Of a stretch of 64,000 bases of DNA, positions 17,870-42,953 are shown in pieces. The notes beneath the pieces are model-generated. The model saw nothing but the letters and a program-made list of their open reading frames with translations. It ran no database searches and was not told the origin of the DNA. The position numbers and the translations under genes were made by a program. Each line of letters opens with the position of its first letter. The first letter of the stretch is position 1. The stretch comes from Octopus vulgaris (lineage: Eukaryota), in the NCBI GenBank assembly GCA_951406725.2, contig OX597819.1:81716001-81780000 (forward strand), read 5' to 3'.

Positions 17870-19965
<2,096 letters not shown>

Positions 19966-28030: not shown

Positions 28031-28926
28031 AGCCATATACATATCATACTTAATGTGTGTGTGTGTGCGTGTGTGTTTGTGCATGTGCACATGCACATGT
28101 GAGTATGTCGTTTGGGTTTTTACCTTTCTTCTTGATTTTTTCCCATCCTGCAATTTATTTGGTAACTTTACTACCGCTGGTTGCATGAAATGAACACTCG
28201 GTTGTGTTAAGGAGTTTAAGGAGGGCACCCATACACAGAAACTATGCCAAAGCTGACACTGGAGTTCAGGGTAGCCCTATAGCTATCTTGGATCTAGTCA
28301 AACCACCCAACCCATGCCAGCACGGAAACTAGACATTAAATGATGATGATGATGATGATGTCTTTCCATTATATGCAATAGAAGCAGTATTGAAATTAAA
28401 ATAGCCATATACATATCATACTTAATGTAAATACATCATTGAAAAACGATTAAGCATGGTATTCATCCAGAAGTAACATCTCTTATGAATGTGTTGTGTT
28501 TAGAAATACAATGTCCCAACCTCATTGCACCTTGTATGTACTCACAGTCAACTACATACTTTGAGAAATTTACAAAATAGATTTTTATTTACCTGGGCAG
28601 GTATTCACATTAACAGTGAATATTTTATTTCCTATTTCTGCTACATCAGAGGTAACAATTATTTTCTAAGCATGTGGCTGGTAGTAAGTTCATGCCATTG
28701 AAGCTAAAGTGCTTTCAGCCATCTCACTAACTGCTGCTTGGATTATTTTCATCTCCCTCTGAAAAACTATGTTGTTAAATACAGCACGTTCATAAGAGAT
28801 GGTATCTTTAGATGAATTCCATAGTAACTGGCCTTTCAGCAGTGTATTTACATTTAAGTATGATACATAGATGGCTATATATGTCTAAATGTGTGTGTGT
28901 ATTCTTACATAAAAATGCATATATAT

Positions 28927-29200
28927 ATATACATATGAGAGGGATGACCACTATGTGGACAACCCTTATGCTAGAAGTAGATCTGCTATGGTCTTACCAC
29001 TAAGAAATGTTCTCGAGAAAAATTTAGCAAACACCAGAACGTAAGCGAGCACAACAAGTTACTTTTCATTTGTTTTGCTTGCTTACGTTCTGGTGCTTCC
29101 TAAATTTTTCTTGAGAACATTTCTTAGTGGTAAGACCATAGCAGATCTACTTCTAGCATAAGGGTTGTCCACATAGTCATCATCCCTCTCATATGTATAT
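28927..29200. repeat. ~270-bp near-perfect inverted repeat (foldback/MITE)
   Basis: catatgagagggatgac..atgtggacaacccttatgctagaagtagatctgctatggtcttaccactaagaaatgttctc is mirrored on the right; loop ~10 nt. Confidence 0.95.
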
Positions 29201-29471
29201 AATACAATTTACTGAACTTTCAGATTTTAATATGCTAGACCACTGGTGTTAAATTGATGTTAATTAAATTAATATCCAATTTCTCACCCTCATTTTAAAT
29301 TTATATATATATATATATATATATACATACATACACAAAATATGGGGGTTTAGTTCGCAAGTGATCTAAACAAATAGGTATGATGGGTAAGTGCTGTAAC
29401 AGATTACCAAGGCTCCAAAGTTATAGCCGAGATGGGAATTATGGAACTGTTGTAGATTTCCGATATAGCAG

Positions 29472-29604
29472 ATATATAATTGTTAAAGAGGACAACAAGC
29501 ATCAAGGCAAGACAAACAGGTCATATATGTTATAATAATAATGTATATGACTCGAGATGTTTGTCTTGCCTTAACGTTTGTTGTCCACTTTAACAATTAT
29601 ATAT
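29472..29604. repeat. ~130-bp inverted repeat
   Basis: ataattgttaaagaggacaac..aaggcaagacaaaca / tgtttgtcttgcctt..gttgtccactttaacaattat. Confidence 0.9.
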
Positions 29605-36288: not shown

Positions 36289-38711
36289 TCATCATCATCA
36301 TCATCATCGTTTAACGTCCGTTCTCCACGCTAGCATGGGTTGGACGGTTCGACCGGGGATCTGGGAAGCCAGAAGGCTGCACCAGGCTCCAGTCTTATCT
36401 GGCAGTGTTTCTACAGCTGGATGCCCTTCCTAACGCCAACTACTCCGTGAGTGTAGTGGGTGCTTTTTACGTGCCACCGGCACGGAAGCCAGTCGAGGCG
36501 GCACTGGCATCGGCCACGATTCGGATGGTGCTTTTTACGTACCACCAGTCCAGGGGTCCTGGCATCTGCCGGGTGCCAGTCATAGGATTGGTTCAATTTC
36601 GATTCCGATTTCGATTTCGATTTCACTTGCCCCAACAGGTCTTTGCATGGGTGCCTGTTGTCGGATGAGGTTCGATATCGACTTCGCTTGCCTCAACAGG
36701 TCTTTGTGTGTCCAAGGGAGGAAAGGCATGCATAAGTGAGCTGGACTCACTTGTCCTGCCTGGTTTTCTCACGCACAGCATATTTCCAAAGGTCTCGGAC
36801 GCTGGTCATTTCTTCAGTGAGGCTTAAAGTTCAAAGGTCGTGCTTCACCACCTCGTCCCAGGTTTTCCTGGACCTACCTCTTCTACGGGTTCCCTCAACT
36901 GCTAGGGATTGGCACTTTTTCACACACCTATCTTCATCCATTCTCGCCACATGACCATACCAGCGCAATCGTCTCTCTTTCACACCACAACTGATGCTTT
37001 TTAGGTCCAACATTTCTCTCAAGGTACTAACGCTCTGTCGAGTATGCACACTGACATTACACACCCATCGGAGCATACTGGCTTCATTCCTTGCGAGCTT
37101 ACGCATGTCCTCAGCAGTCACGGCCCATGTTTCACTGCCATGTAGCATGGCTGTTCGTACACATGCGTCATACAGTCTGCCTTTTACTCTGAGCGAGAGG
37201 CCTTTAGTCACCAGCAGAGGTAAGAGCTCCTTGAACTTTGCCCAGGCTATTCTTACTCTAGCAATTACACTTTCAACGCACCCACCCCTACTACTGACTT
37301 GGTCACCTAGATAACGGAAGCTATCAACTACTTCTAGTTTTTCCCCCTGGAAAGTGACGGAAGTTGTTTTCTGCAGATTTTCAGAGTTTATTGCTCCTGA
37401 GCATCTGCCACATACAAAAACTATCTTCCCAGTTAGCCTTCCTTTGACATTGCTGCACCTCTTATGTGTCCATAGCTTACACTGGGTACATCTTATAGAG
37501 TTTCTACCTACACCTTTTCTACAGATCGAGCGGGGCCATCTTCCTGAAGACATTTGTGGTTTGTCTACCTTCCTACTTTTAGTACTTTGGTTTTAGCTAG
37601 GTTGACTCTAAGGCCCCTCGATTCTAATCCCTCCTTCCACACCTGGAACTTCTCCTCCAGTTCTGATAGTGACTCAGCAATTAGAGCAAGGTCGTCAGCA
37701 TAGAGGAGCTCCCAGGGGCAACCTGTCTTGAATTCCTCCGTAATTGCCTGGAGGACTATGATAATTAGGAGGGGGCTGAGGACTGAACCCTGGTGGACCC
37801 CAACCTCTACTTTGAATTCTTCTGTGTACATGTTGCCAACCCTAACCCTACTTATGGCATCCCTGTACATGGCACGCACAGCTCTCACCAGCCATTCATC
37901 TATCCCTAGTTTCCTCATTGACCATCAGATAAGGGATCGGGGGACCCTGTCAAAGGCTTTCTCCATGTCAACGAAAGCCAGGTACAGGGGCTTATCTTTG
38001 GCTAGGTATTTCTCCTGCAGCTGTCTCACCAGAAATATGGCATCAGTGGTGCTTTTCCCTGGCATGAAACCAAACTGCATCTCGTCCAAGTTGACTCTCT
38101 CCCTAATCAGTTGGGCTATGACCCTCTCTGTAACCTTCATTACCTGATCCAACAGCTTGATACCTCTGTAATTATTTGTATCTAGGGCGTCTCCTTTACC
38201 TTTGTAGCAGTTGACTATTATGCTGCTACACCAGTCATTGGGTATGACTCCTTCATGTATCACCTGTTTAACTATACGGGTGACTAGGTTATAGCCGACA
38301 CTGCCAGATATTTTGAGCATCTCTGCAGTAATTCCTGTTGGGCCTGGGGCTTTCCATGTCTTCATGCTTCTAATTGCCTTAATTACCAAAGAACTGTCAA
38401 CTCGGATGGCTGGTCCCTCTGTTGGGTTGACATTTGGCAGACTCTCTTTATCCCATTCATTTTCTTTATTCAGCAACCTTTCATAGTGGCATCTCCAAAC
38501 CTCTCTCTTTGCATCCTCATTTAGCGCAAGTGAACCATCATCCATGCGGACACATTTCTCTCCTACCACATCACAATTCTCTCTTACACACTGTCTTGCA
38601 ACACGAAATACCTCAAGTCTTTCATCCTCACGGCACAGAACATTGGCAAATTTTTTCTTATCCACTTCCCCTCTGGCTAAATAAACCTGTCTCCTAGCTT
38701 CCCTTCTGGCT
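36289..38711 (-). mobile_element. 5'-truncated RTE-clade LINE (RT domain, 3' UTR, (GAT)n tail)
   Basis: RT motifs NYRGIKLL, QFGFMPGKSTTDAIF, FVDMEKAFDRV, GVHQGSVLSPLL, LLYADD; in-frame TGA at 37925, a frameshift near 37560, premature stop at 36831. Confidence 0.97.
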
Positions 38712-39649
38712 GTTAGTTAATATCACACATCCAGTGAACCTTGTTCAGCACATATCTGTAAAGACTTCATAGATCTTCAACACTCAGTTCCCATGTTTGT
38801 CTGCTTTGCAACACAATGGTTTATGAAGTCTTTGTTCAGTATACCTTTGCATATTAAAAAAATTCTTTGTTGCCAACAGAAACAATTAAATTAAGGTTTC
38901 AAGCTGGTAGAAACGTTAGCATGCCAGGTGAAATACTTAGTGATATTTCGTCTGTCTTTACGTTCTGAATTCAAATTCCGCCGAGGTTTGACTTTGCCTT
39001 TCATCCTTTTGGGGTCGATAAATTAAGTACCAGTTGTGTACTAGGGTCAATCTAATCGACTGGTCCCCTCCCCACAAATTTCGGGCCTTGTGCTTAGAGT
39101 AGAAAAGAAACAATTAAATTGGCTAGTTTTACACTTAGGTAGCTGATTTTTATATTTTTGCAAAGCACGGCTTTACAAAGAGATGATCATAGGCTACCCT
39201 TTTCTGATATTTTCTATAAAATAAGCAAGGCTACTGCATTTATATATATATATATGTAGTTTTATATCCAACTTCTTTTGTTGCTTATATGAGTTGGATG
39301 GTTTCTATTGGTGCGTGTGTTTTTACATATGAATGCTCTTCTTATTGCTAACAACTCAGCTCAGTCATGCTAATTTAACCACAACAATAGTTCCAAGAAC
39401 TCCTTATAACAACCTTCTCCAACACCTATTGGATCATCTATGTAATGGAAACTTAACCTCTGTTCTAAGCAATTAATAGATTTCATTTTATGGATGGTGT
39501 CACTGATATTATTGAGGTGATCTGTGAGAAGGTAACATGGTACAGTGCATAAGGAGAAAAGGATCTTAGGCGAGGCAAAGCAATTCCTCAAGAGGAAGAG
39601 CGCCAGGTACACATTAATGAAGTGCAATTTTCTGTCATCCTGGACAGGT

Positions 39650-41030: not shown

Positions 41031-42133
41031 TAATAAATATTGGGAGATATTCTCACAACTGAGTAAGGCAAGGTTTATGGTATGGTCTGTTGTACATTGA
41101 GGACTGAGCATTCAACCATAACTCACATTGAAATAGTTAGACATGCCAGCATTCCTGTACTTGTGCCCCAGTAAATAGGGCAGAGAAATATGAAGATGAC
41201 AATTAGGAAGACTAGAAACAATGTAATTCCATGGTTGATCACCACATTTATATTACAGTAAGAGTAGAATGTTGGTTAGGAGTAACAAGAAACAACACAT
41301 GTTCAGAAATAATTAAGATGAATATACAAATCCTAATGATCCCTCCAATTCCACAAGGCCATACTAGAGTCATCTCCAGATGAGAGCACCAAGGCAAAAA
41401 GCATGAGACTAATAATGCAGGTAAAACAGCCTAGTTGTTACACATGATAGGAAAAACCACTTGAAGGCCTTTTGTTGTAAAGAAGTGGATGAAGTATGAA
41501 AGCAGAGGAAAGAGGAAAGCAATGGAGAGCAGCTAAGGCATCAATAAGGTCAGCCAATTCCAGTCTCCTGATCCAGATCAGTCACAGATTCATATAGTGT
41601 GAAAGACATCTCCTTGTGCAAAGTACTAAGAATAAGCGAGCAGGTACCTTATCCTCTGACTGTAGTAAACAGCAGCATAGCACCACCATCTTGTGATGAG
41701 AAGGAAGAAATGGAGACCAAGCAAAACTTCCAAGCTATTGATGAGAGTGCAAAGAGCAAAAAATAGAAAGGGAAAATACACCCCTACAAAAAAGAGTAGA
41801 CCCCAAGAAAAATAATCAAAAAAAAAAAAAAAAAAGGTGAGAATTCCCCACTTCAGGAGAAAGTCAGAAATTAAACAGTCATGTAAAACTGTAACCCAGA
41901 GCTACTGATTGTCAATGGAGACTGGAGAGGAATACTAAGGATTGTGAAGAAAAAGAAAAAAAGAGGAAATAGAAGCAGAGAAAGGAAATGGTATGTAAAA
42001 CTCACCAAAAGATACACTTCACAGAATGACACAATATTTATTATTATGAGAGTGAACAATGTGTGCCTAAGATTAATACTAAGCCACTGTAAAACCAATA
42101 AAGATAATAATGTGCTGTATCAGAAGAAAGATA

Positions 42134-42375
42134 TTTTTTTTTTTTTTTTTTTTTTTTTTACTTGTTTAAGTAATTTGAATGCGGCCATGCTGGAGCACCG
42201 CCTTTAGAGTGGTGAAAGAGTACAGCAGGGATCACCACCTCCTGCCGGAGCCTCGTGGAGCTTTTAGGTGTTTTTTTCGCTCAATAAACACACACAACGC
42301 CCGGTCTGGGAATCGAAACCGCGATCCTCCGACCGCAAGTCCGCTGCCCTAACCACTAGGCCATTGCGCCTCCAC
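42134..42375 (-). mobile_element. chimeric SINE: tRNA-derived head + tail of the CORE-type SINE + poly(A)
   Basis: 42375-42206 matches the 5' part of the SINE at ~24424; 42205-42160 matches the AAAGGCGGTGCTCCAGCATGGCC...AAACAAGT tail; 26-nt A-run at 42159-42134. Confidence 0.85.
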
Positions 42376-42383
42376 TTAAAGGA

Positions 42384-42503
42384 ATGCTTACAGCACCTAG
42401 GGTTCCCAAGCGGTCACCCATCTAAGTACTAACTAGGCTCGATGTTGCTTAACTTCGGTGATCAGACGAGAACCGGTGCTTTCAACGTGATATGGCCGTA
42501 AGC
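42384..42503 (-). rRNA. 5S rRNA gene (solitary copy)
   Basis: GCTTACGGCCATATCACGTTGAAAGCACCGGTTCTCGTCTGATCACCGAAGTTAAGC...GATGGGTGACCGCTTGGGAACCCTAGGTGCTGTAAGCAT, 120 nt; helix I pairs fully; internal box A/IE/box C recognisable. Confidence 0.95.
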
Positions 42504-42953
42504 CATATAAAGTGGATATAGAGAAGACAAATAAAAATGTTAGTCTGACATGTTGCTCGTGAAGAAAGCGTCGAAAGAGAAACACCCAGAAGACACTGGA
42601 TGCTTTTTACTATGAGTGTCAGACAAGCTGGGCTTTAAAGTGTCAAAACCTAACCTGGTTAGAGGGTTCTCACTTGTCAGTGGAGAGATCAACATAATTT
42701 GTATCTTCATTGTTTAAATTTTATCTGGTTTAATTAGTTTAATAATGTTTAATTAGAATACAATGAGAGTGATTCGATCGATAGGCGACATAGAAATTTC
42801 TTGCTTTGAATCATTATCATAAAATATTTAAAAAAAATATTATGTTACGCAATGCTAGTTTAGAGTGTTTTATCACAGGGAGGTAACTCTTGTAAAGGGG
42901 TTCATCATGTTGTCTGCTCTTGTTATATGGCCAGTAAAGTCAAAAGACAAAAT

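What the first reader, a model, noticed from the sequence alone, without database searches (positions are those of the whole stretch)
42134..42503. 5S rRNA gene reading into a chimeric SINE with poly(A)
Seen: a full 5S gene with no T4 terminator directly after it (GCATTCCTTTAA), then 8 nt later a CpG-intact tRNA-SINE head, an abrupt switch to the tail of a different SINE family, and A26. No T4 run is apparent on this strand before the A-tail, so Pol III could make one ~370-nt 5S-tRNA-tail RNA. Established: SINE3 elements use 5S heads and dimeric SINEs exist. Inference: a nascent or undescribed 5S-led composite retroposon, or a route by which 5S genes disperse. No TSD was found.
Basis: partly seen in the sequence, partly recalled or inferred. 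Interest (0 to 1): 0.7.

Follow-up and report, generated by a model that had tools for sequence, protein, structure and literature searches.

The report
Pre-5S RNA captured onto young SINE
A copy of a freshly made 5S ribosomal RNA sits fused in front of a young jumping element, and related samples lack both parts; a retrotransposon enzyme likely joined them by hopping between the two RNAs, the route that appears to have made most scattered 5S copies in this genome, none shown to spread as a family.

Summary
The 5S plus its TTCCTTT linker matches three genes of the tandem 5S array exactly and stops inside their T4 terminator, so the 'missing terminator' is an RNA 3' end. Four sequencing runs from four studies or samples show the empty site lacking both 5S and SINE, revealing a 3-4 bp duplication: one recent insertion. 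The head/tail junction is not local: 683 exact copies, a young SINE subfamily. The 5S/SINE junction is single-copy. Of 46 dispersed 5S copies sampled, 43 are fused to a repeat, mostly at the exact start of a SINE head or a ~55-nt LINE tail, with varied linkers; U6 and a pre-tRNA are fused likewise; fused copies do not form a clade. Best reading: a chimeric retrogene, likely made when a CR1-like LINE reverse transcriptase finished a SINE RNA and jumped to the oligo-U end of a 5S precursor. It parallels platypus U6-L2/Mon-1 chimeras; the full-length, sense, trailer-bearing 5S version at ~200 loci was not found in my searches. It is not a 5S SINE family, but it is the raw material for one, and a real 5S dispersal route. 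Expression untested.

The parts
42505..42507 (+). Target-site duplication, copy at the 5S end (ATA; ATAT if 4 bp)
   Evidence: Empty allele reads ...CAGAAGAAAG then ATATAAAGTGG in runs X4, X7, X8; X3 and X4 contigs bridge 42121 to 42505 with 9 letters between
42504..42504 (-). One extra G before 5S +1, likely untemplated
   Evidence: Absent from the empty allele; the three matching array genes have T at -1
42385..42503 (-). Full-length 5S rRNA copy, identical to array genes, without the array's upstream flank
   Evidence: Rfam 112 bits; 5 of 121 full array units share this exact sequence; no upstream-flank similarity
42378..42384 (-). 3' trailer of the primary 5S transcript, ending at 3 of the 4 T of the source gene's terminator
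   Evidence: Same haplotype plus ATTCCTTTT trailer in 3 array genes, L073-L075
42206..42377 (-). Leader and head/body of the young short SINE subfamily (A-box-like 42363-42353, B-box-like 42320-42309; tRNA origin by motif only)
   Evidence: 0-1 mismatch over 194 nt to each of 26 free copies, plus small gaps in 5; 1353 exact copies of a 35-nt head motif
42160..42205 (-). LINE-type 3' tail shared with another SINE family; junction with the head is a subfamily trait
   Evidence: 683 exact junction copies; 61 of 91 local tails of this type sit on the other family; a sister tail ends an endonuclease-RT LINE
42134..42159 (-). Poly(A) tail, 26 nt
42131..42133 (+). Target-site duplication, copy at the poly(A) end (ATA)
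42091..42094 (-). First T4 run downstream; where a read-through Pol III transcript (~410 nt) would end

Best explanation
This is a single, recent insertion of a 5S precursor copy fused to a young SINE, likely made when a LINE reverse transcriptase finished copying the SINE RNA and jumped to the oligo-U 3' end of a newly made 5S transcript. Shown: one insertion with a 3-4 bp duplication; the 5S part is an exact copy of a primary transcript of identifiable array genes; the SINE part is an ordinary member of a 683-copy subfamily; the same kind of join recurs independently at many 5S and U6 loci and at one pre-tRNA locus. Inferred: priming at the AT-rich target on the SINE's poly(A) by a CR1-like LINE enzyme that needs the shared tail, run-off at the SINE 5' end, end-to-end jump to the UUU-OH end, copying to 5S +1, one untemplated base. 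Because small RNAs here seem to need that tail to be inserted, such jumps would be the main way 5S copies leave the array. The products are mostly dead ends.
For: Empty site lacks both parts in X3, X4, X7, X8; X1 and X2 carry the filled 5S-side junction. 5S plus trailer is 100% identical to 3 array genes and stops in their T4. Other young chimeras pair the haplotype and trailer of other array units: L002, L069, L124, L133, L137. 36 of 46 dispersed copies have a head or tail start within 30 nt versus 0.5% background; 7 more start in other repeats. 33 of 46 keep the 5S 5' end within 5 nt and none has the array upstream flank. Sense joins number 5 + 37 + 50 by exact patterns; the antisense control gave 1 hit, which reads by eye as a trailer plus a decayed sense tail. 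0 of 136 array units abut a partner start, so no master locus is seen. 34 of 81 linkers keep T4 or more, which a read-through RNA could not. Fused copies need 18 label changes on the tree against 17.9 shuffled. By eye, 17 of 30 U6 loci are fused to the same heads or tail; a tRNA with trailer is fused to the tail at L181. RtcB ligation needs a cyclic phosphate and a 5'-OH (PMC6789731, passages), which a nascent 5S 3' end and a full Pol III SINE 5' end are not expected to have (established knowledge).
Against: DNA alone cannot separate a template jump from prior RNA ligation. The LINE carrying this exact tail variant was not found (0 of 91 local tails of this type looked LINE-linked by eye); only sister tails were tied to a LINE, and 'CR1-like' is read from recalled motifs, not a tree. 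The poly(A)-side junction of the filled allele was not displayed in any run (repeat masked), and X1 may be the assembly's own sample. Four old 5S-SINE loci share one linker and two share another; the four share no derived change, but a small burst from one master is not excluded. The tree is star-like, with 6 of 50 branches well supported. 3 of 46 dispersed copies showed no partner by probe or BLAST (one of them looks like a decayed tail).
Confidence: 0.78

Rival explanations
1. The two RNAs were ligated first (RtcB-like), and the chimeric RNA was then retrotransposed in one piece.
For: Demonstrated for human U6/L1 (PMC6789731, passages). U6 chimeras are common here too. The bare tail starts at a fixed point in most of 30 copies, which could be a cleaved 5'-OH end. 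It gives the same DNA product.
Against: That paper reports that a 3'-OH donor or a 5'-triphosphate acceptor strongly reduces ligation. Here the donor keeps its unprocessed trailer and the acceptor keeps its full Pol III 5' end.
Confidence: 0.12
2. A nascent 5S-led composite SINE family: a master locus is read through by Pol III into one ~370-410 nt RNA that is being copied.
For: No T4 before 42094; internal 5S promoter identical to array genes; intact tail; 5 other 5S plus same-head loci exist among those fetched; such families exist elsewhere (HaSE3, MEG, AmnSINE1).
Against: This junction is single-copy. The other same-head loci have different linkers, 5S haplotypes and SINE subtypes. One clade is rejected for the 25 fused copies tested. 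No master in the array region.
Confidence: 0.04
3. Two steps at one site: a bare 5S retrocopy or orphon inserted first, then a SINE inserted into its T-rich trailer.
For: These SINEs favour AT-rich targets (flanks). At most 3 of 46 dispersed 5S copies look bare.
Against: One duplication brackets the whole unit and the empty allele lacks both parts. Both parts are essentially undiverged. Priming of a poly(A) RNA on a T-run would favour antisense insertion (inference), yet no true antisense case was found. Array genes, with longer T-runs, have no such insertions.
Confidence: 0.05

Closest known systems
U6-L2 and U6-Mon-1 chimeras of platypus; U6-AnolisSINE2 of Anolis (Doucet et al. 2015, PMC4476161; section 10 read)
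   Same: Small Pol III RNA fused 5' of a SINE or short LINE tail by a stringent LINE; 1-9 bp duplications; few or no bare copies; each chimera independent.
   Different: There the RNA is U6 and mostly 5'-truncated. Here 5S dominates, is mostly full length, keeps the precursor's 3' trailer and can be traced to array units; the host is likely an invertebrate.
Human U6/L1 and 5S/L1 chimeras (10.1101/2025.02.02.635956; passages)
   Same: Single-event fusions that recur and do not self-propagate; U6 full length and sense.
   Different: Human 5S/L1 chimeras are mostly antisense and truncated, with 7-15 bp duplications. Here they are sense, reach the 3' trailer, and join SINE 5' ends or a fixed tail start.
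5S-headed SINE families: SINE3, AmnSINE1/DeuSINE, HaSE3, MEG, Ped-1, OS (PMC10946416, PMC3272025, PMC4494074, PMC4758252; passages)
   Same: 5S sequence placed before a tRNA-type SINE or LINE tail; template switching is the proposed origin.
   Different: Those are amplified families with one shared junction. Here every tested junction but a few is unique and no amplification is shown.
Octopus tRNA-derived SINEs OK, OR1, OR2 (Ohshima and Okada 1994; seen only as a citation; match recalled, not tested)
   Same: The head resembles recalled octopus tRNA-type SINEs.
   Different: No sequence comparison was possible; whether the 683-copy short subfamily is already named is unknown.

Membership tests
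Chimeric retrogene (small RNA + LINE/SINE) | Both parts arrive in one insertion bracketed by one duplication | tested here: met
   Empty allele in 4 runs lacks both; ATA(T) duplication
Chimeric retrogene (small RNA + LINE/SINE) | 5' part is a copy of the RNA, without gene flanks | tested here: met
   Starts at +1, ends inside the terminator, no upstream array flank
Chimeric retrogene (small RNA + LINE/SINE) | Same orientation, retroelement 3' end with tail intact | tested here: met
   antisense control
Chimeric retrogene (small RNA + LINE/SINE) | Junctions arise independently | tested here: met
   37 of 37 tail linkers differ; no repeat of the first 16 nt among 74 loci; tree test; exceptions of 4 and 2 shared linkers
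Chimeric retrogene (small RNA + LINE/SINE) | Joined by template switch rather than RNA ligation | not testable with these tools
   Inferred from expected end chemistry
SINE3 (5S-derived SINE family) | 5S-derived head with intact internal promoter | tested here: met
   Identical to array genes
SINE3 (5S-derived SINE family) | LINE-related 3' tail | tested here: inconclusive
   Sister tail ends an endonuclease-RT LINE; the LINE with this exact variant was not found
SINE3 (5S-derived SINE family) | Many dispersed copies descended from a master, sharing one junction | tested here: not met
   1 copy; clade rejected for the 25 fused copies of the other SINE
SINE3 (5S-derived SINE family) | Transcribed as one Pol III unit | not tested
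   No RNA run was laid
tRNA-derived SINE (the free short subfamily) | Many near-identical dispersed copies with different flanks and A-tail | tested here: met
   683 junction copies; 26 inspected
tRNA-derived SINE (the free short subfamily) | tRNA-related head | tested here: inconclusive
   Box motifs by eye; no ARAGORN or Rfam tRNA hit
Functional orphon 5S gene | DNA-level copy with upstream flank and T4 terminator | tested here: not met

The most novel reading that the evidence does not exclude
This genome is a working nursery of 5S SINEs: one LINE enzyme keeps capturing nascent Pol III transcripts (5S, U6, unspliced pre-tRNA) by their oligo-U ends, the same kind of join launched the 683-copy short SINE, and this copy, with a perfect 5S promoter, only three T at the join and an intact tail, is transcribed as one RNA and can seed a new 5S-led family.
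Probability: 0.15. Interest if true: 0.72.

Novelty: new variant of a known kind. Interest (0 to 1): 0.5.

Why it matters
Template switching is the standing but rarely observed explanation for how 5S- and tRNA-headed SINEs are born. Here about 200 independent 5S fusions (46 in the first 659 Mb, extrapolated) can be compared with a join of similar form that did amplify. That makes two questions testable: why most fusions stay single (34 of 81 keep a terminator at the join), and whether jumping or ligation makes them. The copies also preserve 3' ends of primary 5S transcripts and older array variants (A at position 102 in 45 of 46 dispersed copies, C in 119 of 121 array units), a record of array turnover. 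It warns that dispersed 5S signals and automated '5S SINE' calls in such genomes may be independent chimeras.

Tried and rejected
Rfam and ARAGORN found no tRNA in the SINE head. Folding the 370-nt unit gave z -2.6 but a diffuse ensemble; uninformative. Expression: no RNA holder listed and no RNA run laid; no conclusion drawn. A likeness between the upstream flank and the array leader was tested and was no better than other loci (score 14). A first test of shared changes among four same-linker loci was spoiled by indels and redone with alignment. One of a tandem-duplicated pair (L215) was left out of the tree; 26 fused, 25 free and 3 U6-fused full-length copies were usable out of 35, 49 and 3 found. 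A search for the LINE bearing this exact tail variant in fetched loci found none. Two further tRNA-like fusions seen by eye (L184, L194) were not confirmed by Rfam or ARAGORN. A ribozyme reading of the tail was considered by eye and dropped for lack of the core motifs. Earlier scan notes held nothing relevant. Literature searches listed no paper on sense pre-5S chimeras in a cephalopod; the library lacks most subscription journals and Repbase Reports, and the curated repeat library of PMC13282606, which lists one '5S' SINE family, was not seen.

Full report
What is there. On the minus strand the window holds a full 5S sequence at 42503-42385 (Rfam 112 bits), the linker TTCCTTT, an A, a SINE leader and head from 42376, a switch near 42206 to a short tail, and A26. 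No T4 occurs until 42094. The host genome has 2.8 Gb in 227 contigs; it is likely an octopus, judged from recalled repeat families, not from any call. The surroundings are ordinary repeat-rich DNA with a decayed RT-like stretch at about 36.8-38.7 kb.

The head/tail switch is a subfamily trait. The 29-nt junction has 683 exact copies. All 26 top free copies inspected lack 5S, have different flanks, and differ from the window copy by 0-1 mismatch over 194 nt, with small gaps in 5. A sister tail (1980 exact copies) is the 3' end of a LINE with endonuclease and RT domains in 7 of 30 loci; most of the rest are the bare ~55-nt tail starting at a fixed point. The motifs look CR1-like (recalled; no tree). 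The LINE with this exact tail variant was not found.

The 5S part is a copy of a primary transcript. A 22-nt 5S motif has 351 exact matches; 114 lie in a tandem array on C4. Array genes carry short pyrimidine trailers before their T-runs. The window's 5S and trailer are 100% identical to three array genes whose trailer is ATTCCTTTT, and stop after three T. The array's upstream flank is absent. So the missing terminator is the RNA's 3' end, as expected for Pol III transcripts that end in oligo-U (established knowledge). Other young fusions pair the haplotype and trailer of different array units (L002, L069, L124, L133, L137).

It was one insertion, and recent. In runs X3 and X4 a single contig joins 42121 to 42505 with 9 letters between. 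In X4, X7 and X8 the letters before 42505 read ...GTATCAGAAGAAAG, which is the left flank. The empty allele thus lacks 5S, SINE and poly(A), and the filled allele has ATA (or ATAT) duplicated plus one extra G. X1 and X2 carry the filled 5S-side junction; X1 may be the assembly's own sample, and the poly(A)-side junction was masked. Flanks of the empty alleles differ by 13 and 11 letters in about 1375, roughly a million years of separation if the rate quoted in PMC13282606 applies (inference).

It is one of many independent fusions. I took all 46 non-array matches listed before the array (first 659 Mb; about 200 by extrapolation, at most 237). 36 have a SINE head or tail start within 30 nt (16 tail, 14, 4 and 2 for three heads), against 17 of 3218 flank windows; 7 more run into other repeats; 3 gave no hit. 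33 of 46 keep the 5S 5' end within 5 nt. Exact genome-wide patterns gave 5 fusions to this head, 37 to the tail and 50 to another head; the antisense control gave one hit that reads by eye as a decayed sense tail. All 37 tail linkers differ. On a tree of 53 copies the 25 fused ones need 18 label changes (shuffled 17.9) and one clade is rejected, p-AU 0.004, also for 11 copies sharing a trailer type; the tree is star-like. Against full independence: four old loci share one linker, two another, and one pair is a local duplication; the four share no derived change. None of 136 array units abuts a partner start, and 34 of 81 linkers keep T4 or more, so these were not copied from read-through RNAs. 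U6 behaves the same: by eye 17 of 30 loci join the same heads or tail, 5 join internal pieces, 8 look like genes. At L181 a 113-nt tRNA match with trailer, apparently unspliced, joins the tail.

How it likely works. The LINE enzyme binds the tail, nicks an AT-rich site, primes on the A-tail, copies the SINE to its 5' end, jumps to the UUU-OH end of a nascent 5S transcript and copies it to +1. End-to-end jumping is known for R2 (Bibillo and Eickbush 2004; seen only as a citation, content recalled). The rival is ligation first; RtcB needs a cyclic phosphate and a 5'-OH (PMC6789731, passages), which fits U6 but not an unprocessed 5S end joined to a full SINE head. Seven of 81 linkers hold A-rich runs, which may mark added A on the precursor (untested).

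Comparison with what is known. The closest case is platypus U6-L2 and U6-Mon-1: stringent LINE, small duplications, no bare copies (PMC4476161, section 10). Human 5S/L1 chimeras are mostly antisense and truncated (10.1101/2025.02.02.635956, passages). Amplified 5S SINEs are listed for reptiles, insects, fish and mammals (PMC10946416, passages; PMC3272025, passages; PMC4494074, passages; PMC4758252, passages). An octopus repeat annotation lists one '5S' and one 'U' SINE family without description (PMC13282606, parts 1-2 of 3); its library and supplement were not seen and may bear on novelty. Seven searches listed no report of this pattern in a cephalopod.

Verdict. The locus is a well-documented chimeric retrogene, not a 5S SINE family; it fails the amplification test but works like the presumed first step of one. 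The locus alone is modest; the genome-wide pattern, traceable to source genes and with a clean empty site, is a new variant of a known kind. Interest 0.5.

Noticed in passing
L181:1500-1662 (G000:C1:10.21 Mb): A 113-nt tRNA match (Rfam 50 bits), by eye intron-containing, with 3' trailer and T6, fused to the bare LINE tail; suggests unspliced pre-tRNA is captured too.
   Followed up: partly
L144-L173 (U6 loci): By eye 22 of 30 best U6 matches are fused to SINE heads, the tail or repeat pieces; L152-L156 form a tandem U6 gene cluster on C1.
   Followed up: partly
L174-L203: Most copies of the LINE tail are bare ~55-nt pieces starting at a fixed AAT/GGCGGTG point; why the start is fixed (processed RNA, enzyme stall or tiny SINE) is unexplained.
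   Followed up: partly
G000:C4:35.21-35.33 Mb: 5S array with about 137 units in both orientations and many trailer types; C at position 102 in 119 of 121 units, while 45 of 46 dispersed copies have A, and old trailers such as GTCACACATTT are absent from the array.
   Followed up: partly
window 42160-42185: Three G-to-T changes and a lost C next to the poly(A); similar changes occur in 5 of 26 other copies. May be sequencing errors beside the homopolymer or a sub-lineage.
   Followed up: no
L003, L037, L041, L069, L124, L137, L141: A-rich linkers, some with a G, between 5S and partner; possibly oligoadenylated precursors.
   Followed up: no
L057 and L058, upstream of 5S: Two unrelated loci share the 15-nt flank AGAACAAACTCAATC just before 5S; possibly a preferred target.
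   Followed up: no
L183/L205, 3' end: The LINE tail is followed directly by an inverted copy of the LINE's own 3' end.
   Followed up: no
window 36831-38716 (-): Broken RT-like reading frames of a LINE in three pieces.
   Followed up: no
window 28926-29201, 18697-18855, 29472-29604: Long self-complementary stretches (81-92% identity), likely MITE-like elements.
   Followed up: no
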